Below are positions 1,264 through 14,760 of a stretch of DNA of 14,762 nt, one piece after another; position 1 is the stretch's first letter, and every line of letters starts with the position of its first letter. Where the stretch lies: the UHGV virus genome UHGV-0206032; one strand, written 5' to 3'. The DNA comes from a virus. The position numbers were made by a program, and so were the translations under genes. The notes under the pieces are model-generated. The model was not told the DNA's origin. It was given only the letters and a program-made list of their open reading frames with translations, and did no database searches.

Positions 1264-1272
1264 GGAGCAGAC

Positions 1273-1836
1273 ATGGCTGGTTCAATGCTTGAGGTATCCC
1301 TCGATACAAGCCCAGTAGGCAAGGCTCTGGACGATCTGGTCGAGCGACTAGGCGACCTGACAACGCCGCTCAATGACATCGCCGAATACCTGCACCAATC
1401 GACTGATGACCGCTTTCGTCAGCAGGTAGCCCCGGATGGTTCGCCCTGGGCGCCACTTGCGCCCTCAACTTTGGCACGTAAGAAGGGAGGCCGCATCCTC
1501 CGCGCCAAGGGCACGCTTCAGGACACACTGCGTCACAACGTCAGCAACAATGAGCTGTCTTTCGGTACTGACCGACCATACGGTGCCATTCACCAGCTCG
1601 GTGGTAAGGTCCAGCATGCGGCCAGGTCACAGCAGGTCTACTTCCGTCAGGGTAAAGATGGATCGGTGGGCAACCGCTTTGTGAAGAAGAGCAAGTCCAA
1701 CTTTGCGCAGTGGGTCACCCGTGGTGCGCATGACTCCGAGATCAAGGCAAGACCCTACCTGGGCCTATCATCAGACGACGATATCGAGATACTGGCGATC
1801 ATCCAGGACTACCTTATGGCGCCAATAACAGAGTAA
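1273..1836 (+). CDS. Phage virion morphogenesis protein (Mu G / gp31-like)
   Basis: 187-aa ORF immediately after the MuF gene, with RBS GGGAGCAG 6 nt upstream of ATG. Size and position match Mu G; sequence resembles the virion morphogenesis family from memory. Confidence 0.7.
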   Translation: MAGSMLEVSLDTSPVGKALDDLVERLGDLTTPLNDIAEYLHQSTDDRFRQQVAPDGSPWAPLAPSTLARKKGGRILRAKGTLQDTLRHNVSNNELSFGTDRPYGAIHQLGGKVQHAARSQQVYFRQGKDGSVGNRFVKKSKSNFAQWVTRGAHDSEIKARPYLGLSSDDDIEILAIIQDYLMAPITE

Positions 1837-2087
1837 CGATGCAGAATCACGCAGGCGCTCTGATAGCGGCTTACGGGTACATCCGTCACCTGTGGATTGG
1901 TTAAACAGCGTTAGACCTGCGTTAGATTCAGTTGTAGCGGTATTGATAACGTCTTCGCGAGATATCGTGCGGCCATTCTCTACATATAAAATGAATTCAC
2001 CGCGCACTCATTCTCGTCCTTCCCCAGGCAAAAACCTTGCGCGGTCCTGAAATTACTTTCATTTAAGTACCCGCCGACACTGGCGGC
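1837..2087 (+). promoter_or_regulatory. Intergenic region, candidate internal late promoter/operator (analogous in position to Mu P_I)
   Basis: Only sizeable non-coding gap in the window (251 bp) and AT-richer than its flanks. Contains direct repeat GCGTTAGA x2 (1908-1915, 1919-1926), inverted repeat ACCGCGCA / TGCGCGGT (1999-2006 / 2038-2045) and a GC hairpin CCGCC-N6-GGCGG (2071-2086) abutting the ATG of the next gene. In Mu a C-dependent late promoter sits upstream of gene I. Confidence 0.3.
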
Positions 2088-3062
2088 ATGAAAACTCAAC
2101 TCGCCGCTAACTCAGAAATTTACAGCTCCGTCGAGCTTTCCGATGGGAAGGCCCCCGACTGGGTTGAACTTATCCCCGCAGGTCCGACCGTCACCGGTCG
2201 TGATGGCCGTGCCTGGCTGTTCGATGACATGGCCACCGAACTGGTGCAGTCCAATTTCATCAGTCGAGCAATCGATCTGGTCATTGACCGGGAGCACGCC
2301 ACACAGCTCCGTGCATCCGTTGGCCAGGAAGCCCCAGCCGGTGCCTGGGTCAAACAATTCGAAATCCGCGATGGCGCTCTGTGGGGTCGCGTTGAATGGA
2401 CGCCTCGCGGTGCTGCTCAGGTCGAGGCCAAAGAGTATCGCTACCTATCCCCAGTGTTCGACTACGACCTCGACAACAAACGCATCGTGCGCATGGTCAG
2501 CGCGGCGCTGACCAATATCCCCAACCTCATCATGACCGCCCTCAACCAAGAAGCCCCGGAGAACACACCAGTGAAACTTTCAGCTGCGTTTTTGGCACTG
2601 CTCGGCCTGCCCGACACCGCCACTGAAGAACAGGCCATGTCGGCCGCAAGCCAACTCAAAACTACCGCCCAGGCCGCCAACACCGAACAGCCAAACTTGG
2701 CGCAGTTCGTCCCGCGTGCGGACTACGACGCCCTGGTCGGCCGTGCCACCAACGCCGAACAGGCGCTGGCCAGCCAGAAGAAGGCCGAGCACGACAAGGA
2801 AGTCGATGCAGTCATCATCTCGGCTACTAAGGCCGGAAAGATCACCCCATCCACCGTCGAGTACCACCGCGCCATGTGCCATGACGAAGCGGGCCTGGCG
2901 CGTTTCAAAGATTTTGTGACAGCGGCCCCTGTCGTGGCTGCGGCATCGGAACTGGGCAACAGGAACCCCGCGAATACCGGCACGGCTCTCAACGCCGAGG
3001 AACAAAAGGTCGCATCGTTGCTGGGTATGAGCGAAGCGGAATTCATCAAGGGCAAGGCGTAA
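2088..3062 (+). CDS. Prohead protease / scaffold protein (Mu I / gp32-like)
   Basis: 324-aa ORF. N-terminal half resembles Mu I-type protease (GKAPDWVELIPAGP...GRDGRAWLFDD); C-terminal half is Ala/Gln/Glu-rich and scaffold-like. Lies directly upstream of the major capsid gene, as in Mu. Confidence 0.8.
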   Translation: MKTQLAANSEIYSSVELSDGKAPDWVELIPAGPTVTGRDGRAWLFDDMATELVQSNFISRAIDLVIDREHATQLRASVGQEAPAGAWVKQFEIRDGALWGRVEWTPRGAAQVEAKEYRYLSPVFDYDLDNKRIVRMVSAALTNIPNLIMTALNQEAPENTPVKLSAAFLALLGLPDTATEEQAMSAASQLKTTAQAANTEQPNLAQFVPRADYDALVGRATNAEQALASQKKAEHDKEVDAVIISATKAGKITPSTVEYHRAMCHDEAGLARFKDFVTAAPVVAAASELGNRNPANTGTALNAEEQKVASLLGMSEAEFIKGKA

Positions 3063-3090
3063 CTCCCCCTCTATATAAAGGAAGAGATTC

Positions 3091-3984
3091 ATGATCATTA
3101 ACGCCAGTGTCTTGAACGCGCTGTTTGTTGCGTACAAGGCCGAGTTCCAAAACGCGCAGGCCGCGACACCGACCGACTGGAAGCGTATCGCCACGCCGGT
3201 CCCGTCCTCATCGGCCAGCAATACCTATGGCTGGCTGGGTCAGTTCCCGATGTTCCGTGAGTGGATCGGCGACCGTGTTCTCAAAAACATGGCAGCGCAT
3301 GGCTACTCCATCACCAACAAGAAGTTTGAGTCCTCGGTGGGTGTCCCACGTGATGCCATCGAAGACGACGAGATCGGCGTTTATAAGCCGCTGTTTGCCG
3401 AAATGGGGCGTGCTTCCAGTGCGCACCCGGACGAGCTGGTATTCGCGCTGCTCAAAGCGGGCTTGACCACCACCTGTTACGACGGCCAGTACTTCTTCGA
3501 TACTGATCATCCGGTCTACCCGTCGACCGATGCGTCTGGCACGGCGGTTTCCGTCAGCAACTATCAAGACGGTACAGGCCCGGCCTGGTATCTGCTCGAT
3601 GTCAGCCGCGCCCTGAAACCCATCATCTTTCAGAACCGTCGCAACTACGATCTGAAAGCGATGACCGCAATGGACGACGAAAGCGTATTCATGCGCGACG
3701 AATACCGCTATGGCGTGGATGCCCGGGTGAACGTCGGCTTCGGCTTCTGGCAGTTCGCTTACTGCTCAAAAGCCCCACTGACCGCCGAGAATTACGGCCT
3801 GGCTCGCGCAGCCATGAAGAACTTCCAGGCCGATGGCGGTCGCCCTTTGGGCATCAACCCCGGCCTCCTGGTTGTTCCATCCCAACTGGAAGGCGCTGCT
3901 CGCAAGATCCTGGTCAAGGATGCGGACAACGGCAACGAATGGGCAGGCACCGCCGAAGTACTTGCACCGGCCTGGCTGGGCTAA
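3091..3984 (+). CDS. Major capsid (head) protein, Mu T / gp34-like
   Basis: 297-aa ORF with strong RBS AGGAAGAG upstream. Size and position after the protease/scaffold gene match Mu T; sequence is consistent with the Mu-like major head subunit family from memory. Confidence 0.8.
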   Translation: MIINASVLNALFVAYKAEFQNAQAATPTDWKRIATPVPSSSASNTYGWLGQFPMFREWIGDRVLKNMAAHGYSITNKKFESSVGVPRDAIEDDEIGVYKPLFAEMGRASSAHPDELVFALLKAGLTTTCYDGQYFFDTDHPVYPSTDASGTAVSVSNYQDGTGPAWYLLDVSRALKPIIFQNRRNYDLKAMTAMDDESVFMRDEYRYGVDARVNVGFGFWQFAYCSKAPLTAENYGLARAAMKNFQADGGRPLGINPGLLVVPSQLEGAARKILVKDADNGNEWAGTAEVLAPAWLG

Positions 3985-3993
3985 GGGGGCGTC

Positions 3994-4548
3994 ATGACCA
4001 TTGTGATCACCTCGAAACATGACGGTTTTCGCCGCTGTGGCATCGCCCACTCCAGCGCGGCCGCGCGTTACCCGGATGACTTCTTTTCGGAAGCGCAGTT
4101 GCGGGCTCTGTCAAAAGAGCCTCAGTTGATCCTCGCTTATGAGGAGGATGAATTCGACCAGGTACAGGACCGCCGCGATGAAAACCTCCAGGAAGTCGAT
4201 GTATCGAAAGCGGCCGGCACCTCTGAAAGTACCTTGCAGGGCTTGGGTCAGACAGACCCTGCGGCAGTGGGTGACGCTGGGCTTAACCTCCAGCACGGAG
4301 CCAGCCATGGGCTTGATTTGCCGCAGGTAGGTGGTGTTGTTTCGGCAGATGAGGTCAAGCCTGAGCCAGACCTTGAGGCACTTTGGATCGCCGCGCTCCT
4401 GGAAGACGAACAACGGGAAGCGGCCAAACTGAACGCAGAGACCGAAACGCTTTGGGATGAAGCGATTGCGGAGGATGTACTGCGGGAGGTGGCCAAAGAA
4501 AAGGCGGCAAAGGCACCAGCAAAGCCTAAAAAGGCAGCGGGTAAATGA
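3994..4548 (+). CDS. Mu gp35 / FluMu-like small head-associated protein with acidic middle and Lys/Ala-rich tail
   Basis: 184-aa ORF with RBS AAGGGGG. N-terminal MTIVITSKHDGFRRCGIAH motif resembles the FluMu/Mu gp35 N-terminal domain; middle is strongly acidic; C-terminus is KEKAAKAPAKPKKAAGK. Stop overlaps the next start (ATGA). Confidence 0.5.
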   Translation: MTIVITSKHDGFRRCGIAHSSAAARYPDDFFSEAQLRALSKEPQLILAYEEDEFDQVQDRRDENLQEVDVSKAAGTSESTLQGLGQTDPAAVGDAGLNLQHGASHGLDLPQVGGVVSADEVKPEPDLEALWIAALLEDEQREAAKLNAETETLWDEAIAEDVLREVAKEKAAKAPAKPKKAAGK

Positions 4549-5036
4549 ACCTCTCACTGCCGTCCGCCAGCCAGCTCCTGGTCCGCTTTGGCCCTCGTGA
4601 TATCACCGAGGTTGCAGTCGCGGATACCGACAGGGTCATCGAGCCCGAGCTGCTGGTAGCCGCTGCCGCAGGCAAGCCATTGGATGACTGGTCTGCGGAA
4701 GATGTGGCCATCGCCGTCATGGCGTTGGCCAGGATCGCTGACGCGGTCACTCGGTCGCGTAGTGAGGTTTCGTTTTACCTGCGGTTCCGTGCGGCTGGCG
4801 AAGATGCTCCCGAATGGGTCACCGATGACCTGGCCGAGATCGCTCGCTACCACCTGTACGACGATGCCGGAAAGGAAGAGTCGACTGTGCGGGTGCTCTA
4901 CAAGGACGTGATAAAGCGCCTTGAAACTCTGGCCAAGGAAGACAAGGAGCGTGGAGCCGCCGAGGCAGGCCGGTCGGGCATGCAGCTCACCAGTCAGCCA
5001 CGACTAATGTCTCGCACCACCTTGAGGTCGCTCTGA
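4545..5036 (+). CDS. Head-tail joining / head completion protein (Mu gp36-like, DUF1320-type)
   Basis: 163-aa ORF, ATGA-coupled to the upstream gene and TGATG-coupled to the downstream gene. N-terminus (LLVRFGPRDITEVA) resembles the gp36-family start motif; position matches Mu J/gp36. Confidence 0.5.
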   Translation: MNLSLPSASQLLVRFGPRDITEVAVADTDRVIEPELLVAAAAGKPLDDWSAEDVAIAVMALARIADAVTRSRSEVSFYLRFRAAGEDAPEWVTDDLAEIARYHLYDDAGKEESTVRVLYKDVIKRLETLAKEDKERGAAEAGRSGMQLTSQPRLMSRTTLRSL

Positions 5037-5602
5037 TGTTGGGCGAGCTGGAAGACCTGATCGAGGCGCGCCTGAAGGAACTGACGGCCAAGATCCCGCG
5101 CCTGGCCGTGGAAAGCTACGGCGGTGAATTGAGCGACCCGGACCTGTTGCCTGGGTTGCTCAAACGTTGCCCGGCTGTACTGGTCATGGTGCCCAAGGTG
5201 ACGTTTCAGCGGCGTAGTCAAAATCGCTACACGGTGCCGATTACCTTCCGCCTGGTCATTGCCACACGTCACCCCCGTGGCGAACGGGAAACCCGGCGGG
5301 GTAGCGGCCCAAAGGACGTGGGTAGCTACGACCTATGGGAAGCCTGCATGCATCAACTGGTGGAATGGCAGCCTTGGGTAGATCGTGCAGCTATTCGTCC
5401 GACCGAGCTTTCCAACCTGGTCAACGGCAAGTTGGCCAGCGACCACCTCTCAGTCCTGGGGCAATCGTTCGTCATCGAACTGGATTGGGAAAAACCGAAA
5501 GAGGCTCTGCCTGACTTCCTGGGCGTCAGCTTGGAATACCACACCCCATCGGATAACCCCGAGCCGGTGGCCACCGACATCATCGAACTGAGGGACGTGT
5601 AA
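5036..5602 (+). CDS. Head-tail joining protein (Mu gp37-like, DUF1834-type)
   Basis: 188-aa ORF, start overlaps the previous stop (TGATG). Position and size match Mu gp37/K analogues. Confidence 0.5.
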   Translation: MLGELEDLIEARLKELTAKIPRLAVESYGGELSDPDLLPGLLKRCPAVLVMVPKVTFQRRSQNRYTVPITFRLVIATRHPRGERETRRGSGPKDVGSYDLWEACMHQLVEWQPWVDRAAIRPTELSNLVNGKLASDHLSVLGQSFVIELDWEKPKEALPDFLGVSLEYHTPSDNPEPVATDIIELRDV

Positions 5603-5793
5603 TGCACGTTATCGCCGCACCTGGTCATCGGGTGCCCATGGATGAAGATCCGTACAAGTACATCGAAGAGGCCGAGTCCGTCGACGTGCCAGATACCTCC
5701 TACTACCGACGCCGCTTGGCGGCTGGTGAACTGCTCGCCGCGAAGAAACCACGCGGCAGTGCCAAACAACTCGCACAGGAATCCGCTGAATGA
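5602..5793 (+). CDS. Small tail-associated protein (DUF2635-like, Mu gp38 position)
   Basis: 63-aa ORF, TAATG-coupled upstream and ATGA-coupled to the sheath gene. Motifs APGHRVPMDEDP and DTSYYRRRL resemble the small conserved protein found just upstream of sheath genes. Confidence 0.45.
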   Translation: MHVIAAPGHRVPMDEDPYKYIEEAESVDVPDTSYYRRRLAAGELLAAKKPRGSAKQLAQESAE

Positions 5794-6890
5794 GCATTTC
5801 CTTTGACACCATCCCGGCGTCGATTCGCAAGCCGGGCGTTTACATTGAGTTCAACACCAGCCTGGCGGTACGGACGCTGCCCACCAACAAGCAGAGTGTC
5901 TGCCTGATCGTGCCCCTGGGCGTCGATGCTACTGTTGCGGCCAACGTGCCTACGCCGTTCTACAGCGCAGCCGAGGCCAAAGCCTTGTTCGGCGGGACAG
6001 TGGCCGAGGAAATGGCGGACGCGTTTATCACCGCCTATCGGTACGCCTCCATCTCGGCCGTAGGTGTGGTGGTCGAGGGCGAAACAGAACCCGACATCAA
6101 GGCTGCTTTGGACTCGACCGCCATGGGTGGTTTCACCATCCTGGTGCCTGCCTGGTTTAGCCAGGTCGCACTCACTGCATTGCGCACGCACATCCAGACC
6201 TACACCAGTTCGATGGAGCAACAGGGAATCATCGGTGTGGCGGCGCTGACCAGCACCTTGTCGGCCGCGACCACGTTGGCCACGTCGCTGAACTCCGGCG
6301 CAATCAGCTTGGCAGTCCTGCCGGGAACTGCATCGACTGCGCGCCAGGTAGCCGCCGCGTATGCCGCGATGATCGCCTCGGAAGAAGATCCAGCGCGGCC
6401 GCTGAATACCCTGGTGTTGACTGGTATCAAGGTTCCGCCGGTCACTCAGCGTCTCGGTCGTACAGAGCAGGAAACGGCGCTGGCCAATGGTGTCACGCCG
6501 CTGGAGGTTGCGGCCGGTGATGTCATCCAGATCGTCCGTGCAGTGACCACCTACACCAAGTCTGCTGCTGGTGCCACGGACGTGTCGCTGCTGGATTTGA
6601 CCACTATCCGCACTCTGTATTACGTGCGTGTGGCCATTCGTGACCGCATCCGGCTGCGCTTCCCACGCTCGAAACTCTCCAGCAAGACGCCTGCGGCTGT
6701 TCGTGGCGAGATCCTGGACGTACTCAAGAAGCTGGAAGAGTTGGAAATCGTCGAAGAGGTGGACGCCAACGCCGATGGTCTGGTGGTTGAGCGTTCACTC
6801 CAGGACGTAAACCGCCTCAATGCAACCATTCCTGTCGATGTAGTCAACGGCCTGCATGTGTTCGCCGGTCGCATTGACCTGCTCCTGTAA
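5790..6890 (+). CDS. Tail sheath protein (Mu L-like)
   Basis: 366-aa ORF. N-terminus (TIPASIRKPGVYIEFNTSLA) matches the characteristic sheath N-terminal pattern; followed by a ~120-aa tube gene, as expected for contractile tails. Confidence 0.7.
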   Translation: MSISFDTIPASIRKPGVYIEFNTSLAVRTLPTNKQSVCLIVPLGVDATVAANVPTPFYSAAEAKALFGGTVAEEMADAFITAYRYASISAVGVVVEGETEPDIKAALDSTAMGGFTILVPAWFSQVALTALRTHIQTYTSSMEQQGIIGVAALTSTLSAATTLATSLNSGAISLAVLPGTASTARQVAAAYAAMIASEEDPARPLNTLVLTGIKVPPVTQRLGRTEQETALANGVTPLEVAAGDVIQIVRAVTTYTKSAAGATDVSLLDLTTIRTLYYVRVAIRDRIRLRFPRSKLSSKTPAAVRGEILDVLKKLEELEIVEEVDANADGLVVERSLQDVNRLNATIPVDVVNGLHVFAGRIDLLL

Positions 6891-6903
6891 GAGGTGATTT
6901 TAG

Positions 6904-7275
6904 ATGGCTGATAACTACGTAGGGCAGATCGTCCTGGAGATCAACGGCACCGATTATGAGGTGACGAGCGTTGAGCCGAGCCTTAAGACCGGGCGTAAGG
7001 TCGTCAAGACGATGAACCGCACAGGCCGTCCCACCGGCACGGCAAAAGGTATTGAAGAGCACGAGCTGAAAATCTCGGTGCCAATTCCGAAGACTGGCGA
7101 GCCAGACTGGCGGGCACTGATGGACGCCAAGCTGACCATCTATCCGCAGGACGGTGGCAGTAAGCGCCAGACCTGGACCGGGTGTTCTTTGATGGAGATG
7201 GGCAGTAAGTACCAGGTAGAGGGTGAAGCCACCCGCGACCTGACCATCGCCGCCCTCAACTACTACCCGGAGTGA
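6904..7275 (+). CDS. Tail tube protein (Mu M-like)
   Basis: 123-aa ORF with RBS AGAGGTGA. Size and position (sheath -> tube -> chaperone -> tape measure) match tail tube proteins. Confidence 0.65.
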   Translation: MADNYVGQIVLEINGTDYEVTSVEPSLKTGRKVVKTMNRTGRPTGTAKGIEEHELKISVPIPKTGEPDWRALMDAKLTIYPQDGGSKRQTWTGCSLMEMGSKYQVEGEATRDLTIAALNYYPE

Positions 7276-7279
7276 TGCA

Positions 7280-7666
7280 ATGACCGAGCAATCAAGCAAG
7301 CGCTGGGAAGGACTGAGCATCACCCGCGAACTCAAAATGGGTGTCTATTACTCCGGCCTGCGCCACAAGACCTTCACTTTGCGTGTTCCTGTTGCGGGCG
7401 ACCTGGTCGCCGCGCAGGAGCTGCACCCAGGCGCACCATTTCAACTGATCACCCTGGAGGTTTATCGCCGTCAGTTGTTGTCCCTGGGCGAGATTCCCGC
7501 CGACGCGTTGACCACTGAATTGCTCCTGGGCGAACTCACCGAGAGCGACCTGGCCATCATTGCCGATGCCGATGCCGAGCTGGAAAAAAAGCTCGCGCCG
7601 CCGAGCGCGGCAACGTCGACTGGCGACGAATCGAACACGCCTTCGTCCGCCACGGCTACCGGCTAG
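7280..7666 (+). CDS. Tail assembly chaperone (short, in-frame product)
   Basis: 128-aa ORF between tube and tape measure genes. Contains an in-frame A_AAA_AAG slippery heptamer at 7585-7591. Confidence 0.6.
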   Translation: MTEQSSKRWEGLSITRELKMGVYYSGLRHKTFTLRVPVAGDLVAAQELHPGAPFQLITLEVYRRQLLSLGEIPADALTTELLLGELTESDLAIIADADAELEKKLAPPSAATSTGDESNTPSSATATG

Positions 7667-7788
7667 AAGAGCTTCGCCAGATGACCAGGGCCGAGATCGA
7701 TGCACGTATTGATCTGATCATCGGCAAGGTCAAAGGCACCCGCTATGTCAGTCAGCGCCAGCGCAAGGCGTTGCCTAAACCCAAATGA
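7280..7788 (+). CDS. Tail assembly chaperone, predicted -1 frameshift fusion product (slip at 7585-7591)
   Basis: After a -1 slip on A_AAA_AAG the -1 frame stays open for 65 codons (ARAAERGNVDWRRIEHAFVRHGYRLEELRQMTRAEIDARIDLIIGKVKGTRYVSQRQRKALPKPK) to TGA at 7786-7788, ending just before the tape measure start. Mirrors the conserved G/GT-type frameshift of long-tailed phages. Confidence 0.5.
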
Positions 7789-7843
7789 CAGGCTCGACAC
7801 CGGGCCTTTCCTGTCCCTGTAAGTCCGTTTCCGGGAGTTATCC

Positions 7844-10261
7844 ATGTCCGATCTGCGCGTCGCGCTTCGTTTCCAGGCCCATGCGGGTAACAGTCGGCGC
7901 GAGATCGAGCAGATCAACCGTGACCTGCGCAAGGCTGGCAAGGAGGGCGCCAAGGCTCTGGCCGATGAAAGCTGGAAAGCGTCTTCTGCCATCACCAAGG
8001 TCGGCCAGGTCGGGGCCAACAGCTATAAAGTGATCCGTGCAGCAATGCGCGAAACCGCTACGGCTGGTTCCGGCACGCGCATCGAGGTCAGCAAGACAAC
8101 TGCTGAACTCAAGGATATGGCCAATGCAGCTCGCAAGGCTGCACGAGATGCGAAAACTGAGTTGCAGAACACCGACCGGCAAGGCGTGCAGCCCTTGCGC
8201 CAGAGCGTTGATAAGACAGAGGCATCCTTCCGGCGCATGGCACAGAACAGCGGTCGCAGCCTGCGAACTTTGAAAACCATCGCTATGGGTGTGCGTCAGG
8301 AGTTTGATCGCATCAAGGGGCTGGGCGGGAGCATGCAAGGGAAACTGGCTGGGTTAGGTGTGGGAGTCGGTGTTGTGTCGGGCGTGACATCAAGTGCAAA
8401 GCTGGACCGCCAGCTTATACGTACTCAACAAACTGCGGGCATGTCAGTTGAACAGCGTGAAGAATGGCGTGGTGAACAGTGGCGCTTAGCAAAAACCTAC
8501 GGCATTGAACGTGAGCAAGTTCAAACAGGGTTCGATACCTTGATCGCAAGTGGTATGTCCTACGATAAAGCGAAAGCAAGTTCCGGAGCTATCGCTCAAG
8601 CAACAGCAGTTACGGGGGCTGACTCCGGGATTCTGGCTAAAGCGCTTATAACTGGTGCGAGCGCTTTTGATATTGACCTCTCTAAGCCCAACGCTGCTGT
8701 AGACATCTTGCAAAAAATGATCGTTGCTGGCCGTCTGGGTAACGCTGAACTTGAGAATCTATCAAGCATTTTCCCTAAAGTGGGGCAGGACGCCAAGTCG
8801 GCGGGCATGTCCATGGCTCAGTCTCTTTCGTTTGTTGAAACGTTATCTCTTATTGAACTTGAACCTGATCGTCTAGGAACTCTGGCGCAATCGACTTTGC
8901 GTGCATTCAACAATGGTAATTACCGCAAGAGCGTTACGAAAAATACAGGCGTCGATTTTTTCAACAAGGATAAGTCTGTAAGGAATACTCAGGATGTATT
9001 TCTTGACCTACAGCACAAATACAAATCACTTAAGAATGACAAAGATCGCGCTCGATTCATGGATGTGGTGTTTGGAAAGATGGACCAGGACACGCAAAAG
9101 GGAGTTAAGGCGTTCTTGACTGGTGATCGACTGGAGAACTTTGCTAAAAGTACCGGGGACATTAATAACGCCAAAGGCGTTATTGAAAAGGATCTGGCCG
9201 ATAACATGAGCAGTTCGACTGCTGTCGGTTCTCGAATGAAGGCCAGCCTTGGCGAAGCCATCGACCGTATGGCGAAGCCATTGAACAAAGGCTTTGCAGA
9301 CCTCGGCAGTTACCTGCTCGATGATCTGAATTTGTCAGGCGAGCAAATGCTGGTCGGTGGTGCCGCACTGGGAGTCGGTGGCTACTACGCCGGACGCGGT
9401 GCCAAAGCAGGCGCAGGCGCTTTGCTCAACAAGTTTATGGGTGGACCGGAGACCTTGAAAAACATCGCCGTGGGCAAGGTGTTGGAAGAAGCCACGGGCG
9501 TTACATCTGTTTTCGTCACCAACTGGCCTGCTGGTGCGCCCCTCGGTATTGGCAGCGGTCCCGACCTGCCCAATGGTCCCAGTTCCGGTAAAGGCAACGG
9601 GAAGCCAGGTGGTTTTATCACCCCGTGGCTAGCACCCTTGGCTTTAGCTGCGACGGCCACGCAGATCGGCGGGGCAAGTGCGACGGCTACAGACGAAGGT
9701 CGCCTCGATGCTGCCCAGCGCAGCAAGCTGCTTAACGATGATCAGCGAACGTACCAGGCGTCCTTCTACCGCAACCGCATGGCCCTGGCCGACAGGAATC
9801 CCAGCCAGTCATCTGATTGGCTGTCCTCAGAGGCCCAACGCCTGGCGCACCATGAAACCGGCCTGACAGCTGCGGGCCTGCCCATCGATGGCGCAAACAC
9901 CTGGGCCCAAGGCATCGCCGGTCGTGCCCTGGCTGCGGGTGCCAACACCTTCACAGCACAACAACGCCTGCGGGACATGATGGCGCAATCCGGTACCAGC
10001 CAGCCTTCGACCTGGTTAGCCGACCAGGCGCAACGCCTGGCTAACCCGTTGTCGGGCGGCAGCATGGCTGGCTTTCCTGGAATTGCCGGCAACGGCTCCG
10101 CACCAGGTGCAATCGGTGCCAATCCTGCCGCACAAGCCGCCGAGGAACGCCTCCGCTCCTTGCTCACCCAGCCGCTGATCATTGAAGTGCGTACTGACTC
10201 ACGGATGATCCAGGCCGAGGTTGAGCGTCGAACTGATATTCAGATGAGGCGCGGCGGATGA
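7844..10261 (+). CDS. Tail tape measure protein
   Basis: 805-aa ORF with RBS GGGAG, downstream of the chaperone. Has Gly-rich/hydrophobic stretches, a conserved-looking central core and C-terminal repeats. Stop overlaps the next start (ATGA). Confidence 0.85.
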   Translation: MSDLRVALRFQAHAGNSRREIEQINRDLRKAGKEGAKALADESWKASSAITKVGQVGANSYKVIRAAMRETATAGSGTRIEVSKTTAELKDMANAARKAARDAKTELQNTDRQGVQPLRQSVDKTEASFRRMAQNSGRSLRTLKTIAMGVRQEFDRIKGLGGSMQGKLAGLGVGVGVVSGVTSSAKLDRQLIRTQQTAGMSVEQREEWRGEQWRLAKTYGIEREQVQTGFDTLIASGMSYDKAKASSGAIAQATAVTGADSGILAKALITGASAFDIDLSKPNAAVDILQKMIVAGRLGNAELENLSSIFPKVGQDAKSAGMSMAQSLSFVETLSLIELEPDRLGTLAQSTLRAFNNGNYRKSVTKNTGVDFFNKDKSVRNTQDVFLDLQHKYKSLKNDKDRARFMDVVFGKMDQDTQKGVKAFLTGDRLENFAKSTGDINNAKGVIEKDLADNMSSSTAVGSRMKASLGEAIDRMAKPLNKGFADLGSYLLDDLNLSGEQMLVGGAALGVGGYYAGRGAKAGAGALLNKFMGGPETLKNIAVGKVLEEATGVTSVFVTNWPAGAPLGIGSGPDLPNGPSSGKGNGKPGGFITPWLAPLALAATATQIGGASATATDEGRLDAAQRSKLLNDDQRTYQASFYRNRMALADRNPSQSSDWLSSEAQRLAHHETGLTAAGLPIDGANTWAQGIAGRALAAGANTFTAQQRLRDMMAQSGTSQPSTWLADQAQRLANPLSGGSMAGFPGIAGNGSAPGAIGANPAAQAAEERLRSLLTQPLIIEVRTDSRMIQAEVERRTDIQMRRGG

Positions 10262-11601
10262 GCTGGGCAGAGAACCTGCTGGACGCTTCCTTCCGTGGCG
10301 TCCCGCTCCAAGTAGAAGGCGAAAGCCTACAATGGCAACGCGCCCTGTCTGAGCATGGGACGCCGTTCAAGGATGGCGACCGGGTCAAAGACCTGGGCCG
10401 TGGTGCGCGCCGTATCCCCATGCAAGTAGTGGTGTTCGGCGTCAATTACGAGATCGAACTCCAGAACATCCTCCGTACCTTGAATACACCAGGTACGGGC
10501 GAACTGATCCACCCGATCTACGGCAGCATGAATGTCGTCAGCAGCACCGGCGAGGTAAAGCACAGCGCCGAGCGGCCAGACTATGCCGAGATCAGCATAG
10601 TGTTTGTTGAGGACACGCCCGACGCTCCATTCTTCGACCGGCAGTTTGAATTTGTCGATGTCGGCGTATTGGGGTTGGAGGATGAATACACCTGGCAGGA
10701 TGGCATCTTCGATCTGTTCGGCCGTATTGATTCCCTGGTCGGCGAGATTCAATCGTGGATCGGCGGGGGCTGGGTAGGACTGATCGAAAAGGCCCTGGGC
10801 TTGCCTGGCATTGGCCTGCGCTTGCAACAGCTGCGCTCGCAGATCATGGGTGTGGTGTCCGGCGTCGGGTCGATGGCCAAGCGGCCATCAGGGGCGTTTG
10901 ATCCCCTGGTCGACCTGATGCGCACACCCTCGGAGATCCGAGGCGCCATCCAGGGCAGCACGCCCAGTTCGTCAACGACGCTACTAGCTCGCACTGGCGT
11001 ACCCGTTAGCTTGCCTGGTAATGCCAGCCTGGTGGCGGATGCTGCGCGTGCGGGTACTGGCTTTCTGATAGGTGCCCGACAAGGTGTGGCACCCACCGTC
11101 GGCCTGCTGATCGACGGCGTACCGACCAATGCGGGCAGCGCCCTGGTGCTGCTGCCCGACGGAATGCCGGATGATCCGGTTACCGCTAACGGTTTCGCCC
11201 TGGTCGTCCTGGTCATCACTGAACTGGCACTGGCTCACGCCCAGGCGGTAGCCACCGTCATCGAGGACGAAGCCGATACGCCGACGTTGAGTCCATTAGA
11301 GCTGGAAGGCCTGGTTAATTTGGTGCGCTCGCTGGTGCAGTCGTCCATCCTTCTACAACGTCACCTTTTCGACGTAGAGACCGCACTGCCGATCATTGAT
11401 GCATTGCGCAACGTCGCCGCGTTGATCCAGGCCCGCGCCCGTCAAGTCATTTTGCAAAGTCCTCCGATGCTTGAGCGGGTGGTTGAGACGCCTGCAAGCC
11501 TACATTTGCTGGCTCACCGCTGGTATGGCGGGCCGAGTGGAAGGAAAAGGTCGAAGCGGCCGCTGCTCGCGTCGACAAGATCGCCAAAAAAGGCGGCATG
11601 A
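10258..11601 (+). CDS. DNA circulation protein (Mu N / gp43-like)
   Basis: 447-aa ORF. N-terminus (ASFRGVPLQVEG, LGRGARRIP, GTGELIHPIYGS) matches the DNA circulation protein N-terminal domain as recalled for Mu N. The 3' end is uncertain: its last ~40 codons overlap other frames (see findings). Confidence 0.75.
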   Translation: MSWAENLLDASFRGVPLQVEGESLQWQRALSEHGTPFKDGDRVKDLGRGARRIPMQVVVFGVNYEIELQNILRTLNTPGTGELIHPIYGSMNVVSSTGEVKHSAERPDYAEISIVFVEDTPDAPFFDRQFEFVDVGVLGLEDEYTWQDGIFDLFGRIDSLVGEIQSWIGGGWVGLIEKALGLPGIGLRLQQLRSQIMGVVSGVGSMAKRPSGAFDPLVDLMRTPSEIRGAIQGSTPSSSTTLLARTGVPVSLPGNASLVADAARAGTGFLIGARQGVAPTVGLLIDGVPTNAGSALVLLPDGMPDDPVTANGFALVVLVITELALAHAQAVATVIEDEADTPTLSPLELEGLVNLVRSLVQSSILLQRHLFDVETALPIIDALRNVAALIQARARQVILQSPPMLERVVETPASLHLLAHRWYGGPSGRKRSKRPLLASTRSPKKAA

Positions 11602-11650
11602 GTCAGACAACAGCGGACGAAATCCGGCGCGAGATCCTGGGGATGGCATC

Positions 11651-13204
11651 GTGAGTCTGCCCCTCGTCCTAGACAGCACCGCCACTTTGCTTGCCCCAGC
11701 GGTCTTACTCGACTATCAGAAAGAGTGGATCGGTATACGCGCCCCACTCAAGGTTGGCGAGAAATCCCGGCGTATCGGTCTCACATGGGCTGAGGCGGCA
11801 GACAACGTCCTGGTAGCCGCGTCCGAAAAATCGGCGGGCGGTCAAACTGTCTATTACCTCGGCTACAACCAAGACATGACCGTGGAGTACATCCAGGCAT
11901 GCGCCATGTGGGCGCGGGCCTATAACTACGCGGCCGAGCAAATAGAAGAAGGCATCTGGCCCGACAGCGACCCCGACAAACACATCAAGACCTACACCAT
12001 CGCGTTTCCCAGCGGCCACCGCATCGTCGCGCTGACCAGTCGCCCGTCCAACCTGCGTGGGCGTCAGGGCGTTGTCGTGATCGACGAAGCCGCGTTCCAT
12101 GCGGACTTGGCCGAGCTGCTCAAAGCTGCAATGGCTCTGTTGATCTGGGGCGGTGAAGTCCATGTGATCAGCACCCACGACGGTACGGAGAACCCCTTCA
12201 ACGACCTGGTCAACGAAATCCGGTCAGGCAAGCGCAATGGTGAAGTGTTCCGCTGCACGTTCGGTGAAGCCGTTGCCGATGGTCTGTACAAGCGTGTCTG
12301 CCTGCGTAAAGGCATTGGGTACAGGCTTGAGGATCAAATCGCCTGGGTGAATGACGTATACGACTTCTACGGCGATGCAGCCGACGAAGAATTAGACTGC
12401 GTGCCATCCCAGGGTGGCGGTGCCTTCCTCAGCATGGCCCTGGTTGAGCAGCGCAGTAACCGTGACGTGCCGGTACTGCGCCTGGCATACCCGCAGGGTT
12501 ACGAAACCATCGCCGAACACTTGCGCCTGGCCGAGTCCCTGGAGTGGTGCGAAGAGCATTTGCTCCCGCTGCTTTCGGCCATTCCCCTGGACGTTCAGAG
12601 CTTCTATGGCATGGACTTCGGGCGCTCCGGAGACCTCTCGGTCTTCTGGCCATTGCTCAAAGAGCAGAATCTGCGCAAACGCACGCCCTTTGTGGTCGAG
12701 CTGCGTAACGTCCCGTTCAAGCAACAACTCCAGATTAAGTTTTACATCATTCGTCGCTTACCCAACTTCCTCAAAGGCGCCGACGACGCCAGGGGCAACG
12801 GCTCGCAACTGTCGGAAGACACTGCCGTCGAGTTCGGCTTCAACCGCATCGAGCGTGTGATGCTCACCGAGGGCTGGTATCGCGACAACATGCCGCCGTT
12901 CAAGGCCGCCCTGGAAGATGACACCTTCTACGACATCCCGGCCGACAAGGATGTGGTTAGCGACGTGCGTGCCTTTCGGATGGTCAAGGGCGTGGCTCGC
13001 ATCCCCGAAAAGCGCACCAACGAAAAGGGCGAAAAGTCCGGACCGAAGCGCCATGGCGACGCCGGTATCGCGGCCGTACTGGCCGACTACGCCTCTCGTC
13101 AAGATGTCGAAATCTTCGAATATCACCGCGTCCAGCCAGCCGTCCAGCATGATCGCGAGATCAAGCACGGGGCTGGGTGGCGCTCTCAGAAAGGCATTTG
13201 GTAA
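11651..13204 (+). CDS. Terminase large subunit (Mu gp28-like)
   Basis: Frame of track ORF 11471..13204, but start proposed at GTG 11651 (RBS GGGGA 7 nt upstream); the upstream in-frame part is Arg-rich junk overlapping gene N. Motifs: LLDYQKEW near N-terminus, Walker-B-like VVVIDEAAF, ISTHDG, nuclease-domain-like GMDFGRSGDLSV, C-terminal RHGDAGIAAVLA. Confidence 0.75.
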   Translation: MSLPLVLDSTATLLAPAVLLDYQKEWIGIRAPLKVGEKSRRIGLTWAEAADNVLVAASEKSAGGQTVYYLGYNQDMTVEYIQACAMWARAYNYAAEQIEEGIWPDSDPDKHIKTYTIAFPSGHRIVALTSRPSNLRGRQGVVVIDEAAFHADLAELLKAAMALLIWGGEVHVISTHDGTENPFNDLVNEIRSGKRNGEVFRCTFGEAVADGLYKRVCLRKGIGYRLEDQIAWVNDVYDFYGDAADEELDCVPSQGGGAFLSMALVEQRSNRDVPVLRLAYPQGYETIAEHLRLAESLEWCEEHLLPLLSAIPLDVQSFYGMDFGRSGDLSVFWPLLKEQNLRKRTPFVVELRNVPFKQQLQIKFYIIRRLPNFLKGADDARGNGSQLSEDTAVEFGFNRIERVMLTEGWYRDNMPPFKAALEDDTFYDIPADKDVVSDVRAFRMVKGVARIPEKRTNEKGEKSGPKRHGDAGIAAVLADYASRQDVEIFEYHRVQPAVQHDREIKHGAGWRSQKGIW

Positions 13205-14760
13205 TGGCTGACTCCAAAATCGTCGACCAGTACGGTCGCCCGATCCAGTACGACAAACTCACGGAAGAGCTGGCAGTTGCCCGCACCACCGGCATTCGCC
13301 AGATTTGGCACCAGTCGGTGGCCAACGGCCTGACACCTCAGCGTCTGGCGAGTATTTTGCGGGCCGCTGCCGAGGGATCAGCTAATGACTACCTGACCCT
13401 TGCTGAGGAAATGGAAGAACGGGATCTGCATTATGCCTCGGTGTTAGGCACACGTAAGCTGGCAGTGGCCGGGTTGTCGGTTCGGATCGAGGCAGCCAGC
13501 GACGATCCCGAGGACGTACGCCGGGCCGATCAGCTCAAGGAGCTAGTTGACTCTCCCGAGTTTGGCGAGCTTCAGGCGGACCTGACTGACGCCATGGGCA
13601 AAGGCTATGCCGTCTCCGAAATCATGTGGGACCGTAGTGGTAAGACCTGGAATCCTGAGCGTTTTGAACCCCGCGATCAGCGATTCTTCCAATTTGACCG
13701 TGAAACCGGCCGGGAGCTGCGCCTGCTCGATGAGGCTGATCCGATCAATGGTGTTGCCCTGGCTCCGTACAAATTCATTGTTCATCTGCCGCGTATCCGC
13801 TCTGGTCTTCCGATCCGGGGCGGCCTGGCGCGCCTCGCGGCTGTTGGCTACATGTGCAAGGCCTGGACTTGGAAGGACTGGATGGGCTTTGCTGACATCT
13901 TCGGCATGCCGATGCGCGTCGGCCGGTACGGCGCAGGTGCGAGCAAGGAAGACATCAGCACTCTGATGTCTGCGGTGGCCAACCTGGGCAGCGATGCAGC
14001 AGCGGTGATCCCGGACAGCATGCGCATTGAGTTTACCCAGGCCGCCAATGTGGGCGGTGCCGGGGACTTCTTCAAAGGGCTGGCCGAATGGTGGGATAAA
14101 CAAGTCAGTAAGGCCGTAGTCGGTCAGACCATGTCCACCGACGACGGCTCCAGCCAAGCCCAGGCAACGATTCATAACGAAGTTCGTATAGACCTACTGC
14201 AAGCCGATGCCAAGGCCGAATCCAACACCTTGAACCGCTACTTTGTGCGGCCCTGGTGCGATCTGAACTTTGCACCTGGTCGTCCGTATCCGCGGCTGAT
14301 CATTGATGTGCCAAAGCCAGAAAACACCAAGATCCTGATCGAGGCACTCAAGACACTCGTTCCGTTAGGGTTGAAGGTCGAGCAGTCCGTAATCCGCGAC
14401 AAGCTCAATATCCCGGCTCCGGCCGAGGGTGCCGAACTGCTGGGCATCCCGCCACCCGTTGCCACTCCTGCGCTGGCCCAGGCTACCAACAGCGAGCAAA
14501 AGCCAGCCAAGCCGGTGGTAATGCCGGACATCGTGGATAACCAGGTGCGGACGCTTGAGCGGACTGTGGGGGTCTATATGGATGACATGGTCGAGCAGAT
14601 CAAGGAACTACTCGACACCGTCAGCAGCCTGGAAGAGTTCCGGGATCGGCTGATCGAAGCCTATCCAGCGATGACCACCAGCCAATTGGCCGATGCGATT
14701 GCTGATGGCCTGACGGCCGCCAGCATGGCTGGCCGCGATGACATTCTGAGAGGCCTGTAA
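13204..14760 (+). CDS. Portal protein (Mu gp29-like, DUF935-type)
   Basis: Start proposed at ATG 13204, which overlaps the TerL stop (TAATG), rather than the track's 13177. 518 aa, directly downstream of TerL. N-terminal region (IWHQSVANGLTPQRLASILRAAAEG...LAEEMEERDLHY) resembles the Mu gp29 portal family from memory. Confidence 0.75.
   Translation: MADSKIVDQYGRPIQYDKLTEELAVARTTGIRQIWHQSVANGLTPQRLASILRAAAEGSANDYLTLAEEMEERDLHYASVLGTRKLAVAGLSVRIEAASDDPEDVRRADQLKELVDSPEFGELQADLTDAMGKGYAVSEIMWDRSGKTWNPERFEPRDQRFFQFDRETGRELRLLDEADPINGVALAPYKFIVHLPRIRSGLPIRGGLARLAAVGYMCKAWTWKDWMGFADIFGMPMRVGRYGAGASKEDISTLMSAVANLGSDAAAVIPDSMRIEFTQAANVGGAGDFFKGLAEWWDKQVSKAVVGQTMSTDDGSSQAQATIHNEVRIDLLQADAKAESNTLNRYFVRPWCDLNFAPGRPYPRLIIDVPKPENTKILIEALKTLVPLGLKVEQSVIRDKLNIPAPAEGAELLGIPPPVATPALAQATNSEQKPAKPVVMPDIVDNQVRTLERTVGVYMDDMVEQIKELLDTVSSLEEFRDRLIEAYPAMTTSQLADAIADGLTAASMAGRDDILRGL

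What the first reader, a model, noticed from the sequence alone, without database searches (positions are those of the whole stretch)
7561..7788. Candidate -1 programmed ribosomal frameshift in the tail assembly chaperone
A 7-A run gives the slippery heptamer A_AAA_AAG (7585-7591) exactly in the zero frame (codons GAA AAA AAG = E K K). After a -1 slip the frame is open for 65 codons to TGA at 7786-7788, just before the tape measure gene. The extension is protein-like, not low-complexity. This matches the conserved chaperone frameshift upstream of tape measure genes; the fusion product is absent from the ORF track because it has no ATG of its own.
Basis: partly seen in the sequence, partly recalled or inferred. 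Interest (0 to 1): 0.55.

Follow-up and report, generated by a model that had tools for sequence, protein, structure and literature searches.

The report
Tail chaperone -1 frameshift, Mu-like prophage
The tail assembly chaperone gene of this Mu-like Pseudomonas prophage carries a conserved slippery site that lets some ribosomes slip back one base and make a longer 169-aa protein; this is real but is the textbook arrangement of tailed phages, simply unannotated in this group.

Summary
ORF 7280-7666 (128 aa) is a tail assembly chaperone lying between the tube gene and the tape measure gene. It contains A_AAA_AAG (7585-7591) in the zero-frame register. The -1 frame then runs 65 codons to TGA 7786-7788.

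Taken alone this is weak. The heptamer is expected about 1.3 times in the window by chance, and 9% of in-frame positions have 65 or more open -1 codons. Comparison with relatives is what decides it:
- 77 of 80 loci retrieved only through extension motifs have the extension in the -1 frame. 76 of them have A_AAA_AAG in register and one has G_GGA_AAA.
- GA-AAAAAAG is invariant in 68 distinct sequences, while the neighbouring Leu codon varies synonymously.
- The extension peptide is as conserved as the chaperone domain (dN/dS about 0.22 against 0.16), with variation concentrated at third positions of the -1 frame.
- 67 of 68 sequences have no start codon ahead of the conserved core.

Public annotation shows only the 128-aa product plus 35-47-aa orphan ORFs. 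No convincing stimulatory RNA structure was found. Transcriptional slippage would give the same protein and cannot be excluded.

This is a new, unannotated member of the well-known G/GT-type recoding class (phage Mu itself uses -2). Interest is low.

The parts
6904..7275 (+). Tail tube gene (123 aa), immediately upstream of the chaperone gene
   Evidence: phrog_185 tail tube protein, E=8.5e-28; the sheath gene lies at 5790-6890.
7280..7666 (+). Zero-frame tail assembly chaperone ORF, the G-like product of 128 aa. Residues 1-104 form the conserved chaperone domain. Residues 105-128 (LAPPSAATSTGDESNTPSSATATG) are a low-complexity tail read from the overlap region.
   Evidence: phrog_508 tail assembly chaperone, E=4.2e-30. 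Weak Pfam Gp41_Mu hit of 18.2 bits, below the 27-bit cut-off. hhalign to Mu gp41: probability 78%, E=1.8e-5. In the overlap, the second position of zero-frame codons is the most variable site.
7585..7591 (+). Slippery heptamer A_AAA_AAG in the zero-frame register (GAA AAA AAG = E K K)
   Evidence: It is invariant in 68 distinct homologous sequences while the adjacent Leu codon varies among CTG, CTT, CTA, CTC and TTG. It is present in register in 76 of 80 loci retrieved through extension motifs only, and in the 39%-identity relatives L005 and L083.
7591..7788 (+). -1 frame extension (T-like part): 65 codons, ARAAERGNVDWRRIEHAFVRHGYRLEELRQMTRAEIDARIDLIIGKVKGTRYVSQRQRKALPKPK, plus TGA
   Evidence: There are 70 distinct homologous peptides of 60-69 aa with a conserved core AAERG..DWRRIEHxLVRHGYRLxEIRxMTxxEIDxRxDL. 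Pairwise differences by -1 codon position are 0.275/0.165/0.503 beyond the zero-frame stop and 0.143/0.120/0.305 in the overlap. dN/dS is about 0.22. 67 of 68 sequences have no ATG, GTG or TTG upstream of the conserved Trp.
7280..7788 (+). Span of the predicted transframe product: 7280-7591 read in frame 0, then 7591-7785 read in frame -1, giving 169 aa
   Evidence: In the alignment of the deduced fusions, K103, K104 and the extension residues are invariant or nearly so.
7597..7611 (+). Candidate small hairpin GCCGC-CGAGC-GCGGC starting 5 nt after the heptamer; its role as a stimulator is unproven
   Evidence: -9.4 kcal/mol but z=-0.4 against shuffles. It is the consensus hairpin in 37 diverse sequences with 97.8% of cells paired, but it shows only one compensatory event and the same bases encode the conserved AAERG motif.
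7681..7788 (+). 35-aa orphan ORF (MTRAEIDARI...) that gene callers report; it is the distal half of the extension read from an internal ATG
   Evidence: It is called as a 35-aa gene with no Pfam hit in every public contig that carries the identical chaperone. The only database proteins matching the extension are such 35-47-aa fragments and one 76-aa in-frame variant.
7844..10261 (+). Tape measure protein gene (805 aa), starting 55 nt after the extension's stop codon
   Evidence: PF10145 PhageMin_Tail, E=1.4e-20; phrog_973 tape measure, E=1e-88.

Best explanation
Gene 7280-7666 encodes the tail assembly chaperone of a Mu-like contractile-tail prophage of Pseudomonas. Most ribosomes read it in frame and make the 128-aa protein. 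A minority slip back one base when the Lys tRNAs sit on AAA-AAG within A_AAA_AAG (7585-7591), re-pair on AAA-AAA, and continue in the -1 frame through 65 more codons to TGA 7786-7788. This yields a 169-aa fusion: the chaperone domain (residues 1-104) plus a conserved basic helical extension. By analogy with lambda gpG/gpGT and P2 E/E+E', the shared N-terminal part is inferred to coat the tape measure protein, and the extension is inferred to recruit the tube protein; the fixed ratio of the two products would then be set by the slip frequency. What is shown here: the gene's identity and position, the slip site, its register, and purifying selection on the -1 peptide, which has no start codon of its own. 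What is inferred: that the shift is ribosomal, its efficiency, and the binding roles of the two parts.
For: Gene identity and position:
- The order is sheath, tube, chaperone, tape measure, with Mu-type head and tail genes around them.
- Phage Mu has the same layout, and its record annotates a frameshift product of gp41 as verified.

Slip site:
- A_AAA_AAG is in register.
- It is invariant in 68 distinct homologues while the flanking codons vary synonymously.
- It is retained in two relatives of 39% identity from other hosts.
- In a sample collected through extension motifs only, 77 of 80 loci have the extension in the -1 frame; 76 have A_AAA_AAG and one has G_GGA_AAA.

Coding in the -1 frame:
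- Extension lengths are 60-69 aa with a strongly conserved core.
- Variation is dominated by third positions of the -1 frame, both in and beyond the overlap.
- dN/dS is 0.22 against 0.16 for the chaperone domain. Over the overlap, mean amino-acid identity is 81% in the -1 frame against 62% in the zero frame.
- Three phage contigs have 82-91% DNA identity but 94-97% identity of the -1 peptide.

No independent initiation:
- 67 of 68 sequences have no start codon before the conserved Trp.
- Databases hold only 35-47-aa fragments of the extension.

Ribosomal rather than transcriptional slippage:
- L168 keeps a classical heptamer (G_GGA_AAA) with only five A's.
- L081 has no A run at all, yet its extension is still in the -1 frame.
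- L005 has a strong hairpin 4 nt after the heptamer (z=-4.65).
- A_AAA_AAG is the most shift-prone heptamer tested in E. coli and is the dnaX site (PMC5009743).
- The G/GT-type frameshift between the tail gene and the tape measure gene is widely conserved (Xu et al. 2004, as cited in PMC2628397 and PMC5009743).
Against: - No protein or RNA data exist for this element.
- The heptamer and the open frame are not significant on their own.
- No convincing stimulator was found: folding downstream of the site is no better than shuffled sequence (z=-0.65 and -0.4). The conserved 5-bp hairpin can be explained by the dual coding of that stretch. No consistent Shine-Dalgarno-like element lies upstream, and Rfam gives no match.
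- Insertion of one A by RNA polymerase in the A7 run would produce exactly the same protein.
- Three of 80 loci have A6, which places the extension in the +1/-2 relation.
- The extension shows no detectable similarity to Mu's frameshift extension or to any Pfam or PHROG family.
- Whether the host has a single tRNA-Lys(UUU) was not tested.
Confidence: 0.85

Rival explanations
1. Transcriptional slippage: RNA polymerase occasionally adds one extra A while copying the A7 run (7584-7590). Standard translation of the A8 mRNA then gives the same 169-aa protein (...ELEKKARAAERG...).
For: A homopolymer of seven A's is present and invariant. The product would be identical in sequence, so none of the conservation evidence for the fusion protein discriminates between the two mechanisms. 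Run-length variants (A6 in three loci, and an in-frame A5-type fusion in P0098) show that the run is unstable at some level, whether biological or technical. Productive transcriptional slippage is documented in bacteria (PMC5009743).
Against: Seven A's is short for efficient slippage by bacterial RNA polymerase; the known productive cases use about nine or more (own knowledge). The run is always in the X_XXY_YYZ register and is always followed by G. L168 has only five A's but a perfect G_GGA_AAA heptamer in register, and L081 has no A run, yet both keep the -1 extension. The distant relative L005 has a strong hairpin 4 nt downstream of the heptamer, which is the arrangement that stimulates ribosomal shifting, not polymerase slippage.
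Confidence: 0.08
2. There is no recoding. Only the 128-aa protein and perhaps the small 35-aa ORF (ATG 7681 to 7788) are made, and the open -1 frame is a by-product of G+C-rich sequence.
For: Gene callers annotate exactly this in all public contigs. Long open alternative frames are common in this window: 9.2% of positions have 65 or more open -1 codons. The heptamer count is at chance level.
Against: The most conserved part of the -1 peptide (AAERG..DWRRIEHxLVRHGYRL) lies upstream of ATG 7681 and has no start codon in 67 of 68 sequences. The -1 frame shows a coding substitution pattern from the heptamer onward, including in the overlap, where the zero frame does not. The slip site is invariant at synonymous positions and persists at 39% protein identity.
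Confidence: 0.03
3. The A run plus the G+C-rich hairpin is a Rho-independent terminator for the minus strand (hairpin 7615-7591 followed by T7) that blocks antisense transcription into the late operon. On this reading the frameshift-like look is incidental.
For: The pattern scan reports three overlapping terminator-like sites on the minus strand at 7615-7584, against 0.9 sites expected in the region.
Against: All identified genes of the window are on the + strand, so no minus-strand transcript is known that would need terminating. This reading does not explain the -1 frame coding signature, the register of the heptamer, or the conserved peptide. It is also not exclusive of frameshifting.
Confidence: 0.02

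Closest known systems
Phage Mu gp41 and its frameshift product (Mu_41 / Mu_56, AF083977)
   Same: The gene order is the same: tail terminator, sheath L, tube M, chaperone, tape measure, N. The N-terminal chaperone domains are detectably homologous (hhalign probability 78%, E=1.8e-5 over 87 columns; weak Pfam Gp41_Mu hit). [quoted passage not shown]
   Different: The Mu record annotates its shift as a verified -2 frameshift (PMC5009743). From my reading of the sequence it lies in the G-rich stretch CGG GGG CGA. Here the shift is -1 at A_AAA_AAG. The extensions show no detectable similarity (hhalign probability 0.07%). The Pfam score is below the family cut-off (18.2 against 27 bits).
Lambda gpG / gpGT (Levin et al. 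1993; Xu et al. 2004, 2013, 2014)
   Same: The gene sits between the major tail gene and the tape measure gene. [quoted passage not shown] The relative L168 even uses the lambda-type G_GGA_AAA heptamer. The functional model, in which G binds the tape measure and T binds the tail tube subunit, is taken from this system (PMC5009743).
   Different: Lambda has a non-contractile tail, a G_GGA_AAG site and a much longer T part. No sequence similarity to lambda G/T was found here. The protein-binding roles are untested for this element.
P2 E / E+E' (Christie et al. 2002)
   Same: It is a contractile-tail phage with a -1 shift in the chaperone gene upstream of the tape measure gene, and a short extension. 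The review cites a 2-3-fold higher efficiency than in lambda (PMC5009743).
   Different: P2 uses a T-rich heptamer (own knowledge) and belongs to a different protein family.
E. coli dnaX frameshift cassette
   Same: The slippery heptamer A_AAA_AAG is identical, and its shiftiness depends on the single tRNA-Lys (PMC5009743).
   Different: dnaX has an upstream Shine-Dalgarno-like element and a strong downstream hairpin, and shifts at about 50%. Here there is no consistent upstream element and only a 5-bp hairpin of uncertain relevance. The distant relative L005 does have a dnaX-like strong hairpin.

Membership tests
G/GT-type programmed frameshift of phage tail assembly chaperones (Xu, Hendrix and Duda 2004) | The gene lies between the major tail or tube gene and the tape measure gene | tested here: met
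   Tube 6904-7275, chaperone 7280-7666, tape measure 7844-10261.
G/GT-type programmed frameshift of phage tail assembly chaperones (Xu, Hendrix and Duda 2004) | A second ORF overlaps the 3' end of the first in another frame, has no initiation site of its own, and ends just before the tape measure gene | tested here: met
   The -1 frame is open from 7519 to 7788. There is no ATG, GTG or TTG before the conserved core in 67 of 68 homologues. The stop lies 55 nt before the tape measure ATG.
G/GT-type programmed frameshift of phage tail assembly chaperones (Xu, Hendrix and Duda 2004) | A slippery sequence lies in the correct register inside the overlap | tested here: met
   A_AAA_AAG at 7585-7591 in zero-frame register.
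G/GT-type programmed frameshift of phage tail assembly chaperones (Xu, Hendrix and Duda 2004) | The slip site and the transframe peptide are conserved among homologues | tested here: met
   76 of 80 independently retrieved loci have A_AAA_AAG and one has G_GGA_AAA. There are 70 distinct conserved extension peptides. dN/dS is 0.22 in the -1 frame.
G/GT-type programmed frameshift of phage tail assembly chaperones (Xu, Hendrix and Duda 2004) | Both products are made in a set ratio and both are needed for tail assembly | not testable with these tools
   This needs a reporter assay, a western blot and genetics.
G/GT-type programmed frameshift of phage tail assembly chaperones (Xu, Hendrix and Duda 2004) | The common part binds the tape measure protein and the extension binds the tube subunit | not testable with these tools
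   The AlphaFold model of the zero-frame protein was unusable (pLDDT 43.9). No solved relative was found.
PHROG 508 (tail assembly chaperone) | Significant match to the family profile | tested here: met
   E=4.2e-30, covering residues 5-127.
Pfam PF23746 Gp41_Mu | Score at or above the gathering threshold (27 bits) | tested here: not met
   18.2 bits, E=0.0028. Support for homology is indirect: hhalign probability 78%, and two homologues (P0036, P0051) carry precomputed PF23746 hits.
Mu-type recoding (-2 shift at a G run) | The extension lies in the -2/+1 frame relative to the chaperone ORF | tested here: not met
   The extension is in the -1 frame in the window and in 77 of 80 relatives. The Mu extension is not detectably similar.
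dnaX-type frameshift cassette | A_AAA_AAG together with an upstream Shine-Dalgarno-like element and a stable downstream hairpin | tested here: inconclusive
   The heptamer is present. No consistent upstream element exists. The downstream hairpin has only 5 bp, z=-0.4 and one compensatory event. Rfam gives no match.

The most novel reading that the evidence does not exclude
Within this one chaperone family the recoding site itself is turning over. Most members use A_AAA_AAG. One uses the lambda-type G_GGA_AAA (L168) and one has both overlapping (L113). One has a G5 run with no classical heptamer (L081). A distant member adds a dnaX-like hairpin (L005). Three members (L107, L121, L134) have A6, which puts the extension in the +1/-2 relation, as in phage Mu, where -2 shifting is verified. 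If the A6 alleles are real and functional, the family would switch between -1 and -2 shifting, or would rely on transcriptional slippage, at the same spot. That would give a natural series for studying how recoding sites interconvert.
Probability: 0.12. Interest if true: 0.4.

Novelty: new member of a known kind. Interest (0 to 1): 0.2.

Why it matters
The main value is for annotation. Every public copy of this gene found here is recorded as a 128-aa hypothetical protein, followed in the contigs examined by a 35-aa orphan ORF. An essential tail assembly protein of a widespread group of Mu-like Pseudomonas prophages is therefore missing from the databases. The case adds another well-supported example of the conserved G/GT strategy in contractile-tail phages. 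It also shows that close relatives of Mu, which uses -2, use a plain -1 dnaX-type heptamer. It does not open a new question.

Tried and rejected
- Structure: the AlphaFold2 model of the zero-frame protein with a 17-sequence alignment gave pLDDT 43.9, so no fold search was run.
- Sequence search of the PDB with the fusion profile returned nothing meaningful; the best hit had E=0.065.
- Pfam and PHROGs searches with the extension alone gave no family.
- hhalign of the extension profile against Mu's -2 extension found no similarity.
- Rfam on 7300-7900 gave only chance-level hits.
- A stimulatory RNA structure was looked for. The 96-nt fold has z=-0.65. The consensus fold of 37 sequences gives only a 5-bp hairpin with one compensatory event. 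I judge this inconclusive, because the same bases are doubly coding.
- The second in-frame AAAAAAG at 11586 was rejected as chance. It lies in an aberrant tail of the N-like ORF created by a breakpoint, and inside the terminase-like ORF it is in a non-slippery register.
- An exact look-up of the N-like fusion protein found no record.
- A search of annotated phages with the fusion found only three unannotated metagenomic contigs, so no existing annotation of this frameshift could be compared.
- The first locus search used a peptide pattern that included LEKKL and so could bias slip-site counts. It was repeated with extension-only patterns.

Full report
**1. The observation**

- ORF 7280-7666 on the + strand encodes 128 aa.
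- Its codons around the site are CTG GAA AAA AAG. The seven-A run at 7584-7590 plus G7591 therefore gives A_AAA_AAG at 7585-7591 in the X_XXY_YYZ register.
- After a -1 slip the next codon is GCT at 7591. The frame then stays open for 65 codons to TGA at 7786-7788.
- The predicted fusion has 169 aa with the junction ...ELEKK/ARAAERG....
- The -1 frame is actually open from 7519, so the finding's start coordinate of 7561 has no particular meaning.

Taken alone this is weak evidence. AAAAAAG occurs twice in the window against 1.26 expected from shuffles. In addition, 9.2% of in-frame positions in the window's genes are followed by at least 65 open -1 codons.

**2. Context**

The window carries a Mu-type morphogenesis module:
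- Mu F-like protein, virion morphogenesis protein, protease I and major head protein T;
- FluMu_N, gp36 and gp37 homologues;
- sheath (5790-6890) and tube (6904-7275);
- the ORF in question, which matches phrog_508 (tail assembly chaperone) at E=4e-30;
- tape measure (7844-10261) and a DNA-circularisation/baseplate hub protein.

Phage Mu has the same order, and its record annotates a frameshift product of gp41 as verified. Homologues of the 128-aa protein are almost all from Pseudomonas genomes and metagenomes.

**3. Conservation of the slip site**

The first locus search gave 78 viral contigs. Three phage contigs and two genomic loci were added to these. In this set an in-frame AAAAAAG sits at the same place in every complete homologue of 58% identity or more. 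It is also present in two relatives of only 39% identity, one from a Desulfovibrio genome.

In 68 distinct sequences, GA-AAAAAAG never varies. The Leu codon just upstream appears as CTG, CTT, CTA, CTC and TTG.

That first search used a peptide pattern containing LEKKL, which could bias the count. I therefore repeated it with patterns taken only from the extension. Of the 80 loci returned:
- 77 have the extension in the -1 frame relative to the chaperone domain;
- 76 of those have A_AAA_AAG in register (one of them as G_GGA_AAA_AAG), and one has G_GGA_AAA only, with five A's;
- 3 have an A6 run, which places the extension in the +1/-2 relation.

**4. Coding in the -1 frame**

- The extensions are 60-69 aa long and share the core AAERG..DWRRIEHxLVRHGYRLxEIRxMTxxEIDxRxDL..GK...RYVS.
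- Mean pairwise differences at -1 codon positions 1/2/3 are 0.275/0.165/0.503 beyond the zero-frame stop and 0.143/0.120/0.305 in the overlap. The chaperone domain read in frame 0 gives 0.256/0.179/0.526.
- In the overlap the most variable site is therefore the second position of zero-frame codons. The low-complexity tail of the 128-aa product appears to be carried along by selection on the -1 frame. Over the same bases, amino-acid identity is 81% in the -1 frame and 62% in frame 0.
- dN/dS is about 0.22 for the extension and 0.16 for the chaperone domain.
- Three phage contigs with 82-91% DNA identity have 94-97% identical -1 peptides.

**5. No independent initiation**

In 67 of 68 sequences there is no ATG, GTG or TTG in the -1 frame between its upstream stop and the conserved Trp.

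Public gene calls show the consequence:
- All but one of the 97 database homologues cover only the first 62% or so of the fusion query.
- Contigs carrying the identical chaperone list a 35-aa ORF that starts at the internal ATG, equivalent to window 7681.
- An exhaustive search with the extension found only 35-47-aa fragments, one 76-aa in-frame variant that probably reflects a run-length difference, and one unrelated repeat protein.

**6. Mechanism**

A_AAA_AAG is the dnaX heptamer. It was the most shift-prone sequence tested in E. coli, a property attributed to that organism's single tRNA-Lys (PMC5009743). Whether the host of this prophage has one tRNA-Lys species was not tested.

I found no convincing stimulator.
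- The region downstream of the site folds no better than shuffled sequence (z=-0.65).
- The consensus fold of 37 diverse sequences gives a 5-bp G+C hairpin at 7597-7611, starting 5 nt after the heptamer. It has -9.4 kcal/mol and z=-0.4, and 97.8% of cells are paired, but it shows a single compensatory event. The same bases encode the conserved AAERG motif in one frame and PPSA in the other.
- No consistent Shine-Dalgarno-like element lies upstream, and Rfam gives no match.

Low-efficiency G/GT-type shifts are known to need little stimulation (PMC5009743).

Insertion of one A by RNA polymerase in the A7 run would give the same protein, so it cannot be excluded. Several points argue for a ribosomal event:
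- the fixed register and the invariant 3' G;
- the five-A G_GGA_AAA variant in L168;
- L081, which has no A run (CTG GGG GAA) but keeps the -1 extension;
- the strong hairpin 4 nt after the heptamer in the distant relative L005 (z=-4.65).

On the minus strand, the hairpin followed by the T run resembles a terminator. No minus-strand gene is present, and this reading explains none of the coding evidence.

**7. Comparison with known systems**

The feature meets every sequence-level criterion of the conserved tail-chaperone frameshift described by Xu, Hendrix and Duda in 2004 (cited in PMC2628397 and PMC5009743).

The chaperone domain is distantly homologous to Mu gp41: hhalign gives probability 78% and E=1.8e-5. 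It falls below the Pfam Gp41_Mu threshold, at 18.2 against 27 bits. Mu itself uses a verified -2 shift at a G-rich site, and its extension is not detectably similar to this one.

This is therefore a new, unannotated member of a known kind. It works like lambda G/GT and P2 E/E+E', with the dnaX heptamer.

**8. Verdict**

My confidence is about 0.93 that a transframe fusion is made and used, and about 0.85 that it arises by ribosomal -1 slippage at 7585-7591. Interest is low (0.2). The practical gain is a correction to annotation for a widespread group of Mu-like Pseudomonas prophages.

Noticed in passing
window 11525-11530 (and the window's two ends): The window is rotated or chimeric relative to related phage genomes. 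Positions 1-11530 match MT835710 8099-20875 (Mu F-like gene through the N-like gene). Positions 11525-14760 match MT835710 4472-7707 (terminase-like ORF 11525-13204 and Mu portal 13177-14760). The breakpoint sits on a shared ATGGCG and removes about 33 C-terminal codons of the N-like gene 10258-11601. In natural contigs carrying the identical chaperone (L088) the order is terminase, portal, then F after 2 nt, on through N (456 aa), P, gp45, gp46, gp47 and gp48. The portal-to-F spacing there equals the window's end-to-start spacing. This suggests a circularised or misassembled contig, or a deletion derivative lacking baseplate genes.
   Followed up: partly
window 11586-11592: There is a second A_AAA_AAG in register with ORF 10258-11601, with 20 open -1 codons after it. 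It lies in the aberrant tail created by the breakpoint. Within the terminase-like ORF it is in a non-slippery register (CAA AAA AGG). I judge it to be chance.
   Followed up: yes
L107 (= L023), L121 (= L053) and L134, at the slip site: Three of 80 related loci have GGAAAAAAG (A6) instead of A7. The chaperone frame then runs into the +1 frame, and the extension is in the +1/-2 relation. They may be homopolymer sequencing errors, inactivating indels in decaying prophages, or real variants. The database protein P0098 (76 aa...ELEK-AHAAERG...) looks like an in-frame run-length variant.
   Followed up: partly
L168, L113 and L081, at the slip site: These loci carry alternative slip sites at the same spot. 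L168 has CTG GGA AAA AGG, giving G_GGA_AAA (lambda type) with only five A's. L113 has G_GGA_AAA_AAG, two overlapping heptamers. L081 (50% identity) has CTG GGG GAA with no classical heptamer, yet its conserved extension is still in the -1 frame.
   Followed up: partly
L005:2724-2800 (Desulfovibrio sp. contig): This is a 39%-identity relative of the chaperone. It keeps A_AAA_AAG and has an 80-aa -1 extension. A long hairpin starts 4 nt after the heptamer (-40.8 kcal/mol, z=-4.65), which is a dnaX-like stimulator absent from the Pseudomonas group.
   Followed up: partly
L088 11723-13024 and L092 (contigs with the identical chaperone): In two public contigs the tape measure gene is split, and in L088 an ISL3-family transposase gene on the opposite strand lies in the gap. 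These prophage copies are probably defective.
   Followed up: no
window 7615-7584, minus strand: On the minus strand, the G+C hairpin followed by T7 scores as an intrinsic terminator-like site in three overlapping versions. No minus-strand gene is evident, so this is probably a mirror image of the slip-site region.
   Followed up: no
window 1-1263: The Mu F-like head protein carries a C-terminal PBECR2 nuclease-like domain (PF18810, E=8e-26) after the Phage_Mu_F domain.
   Followed up: no
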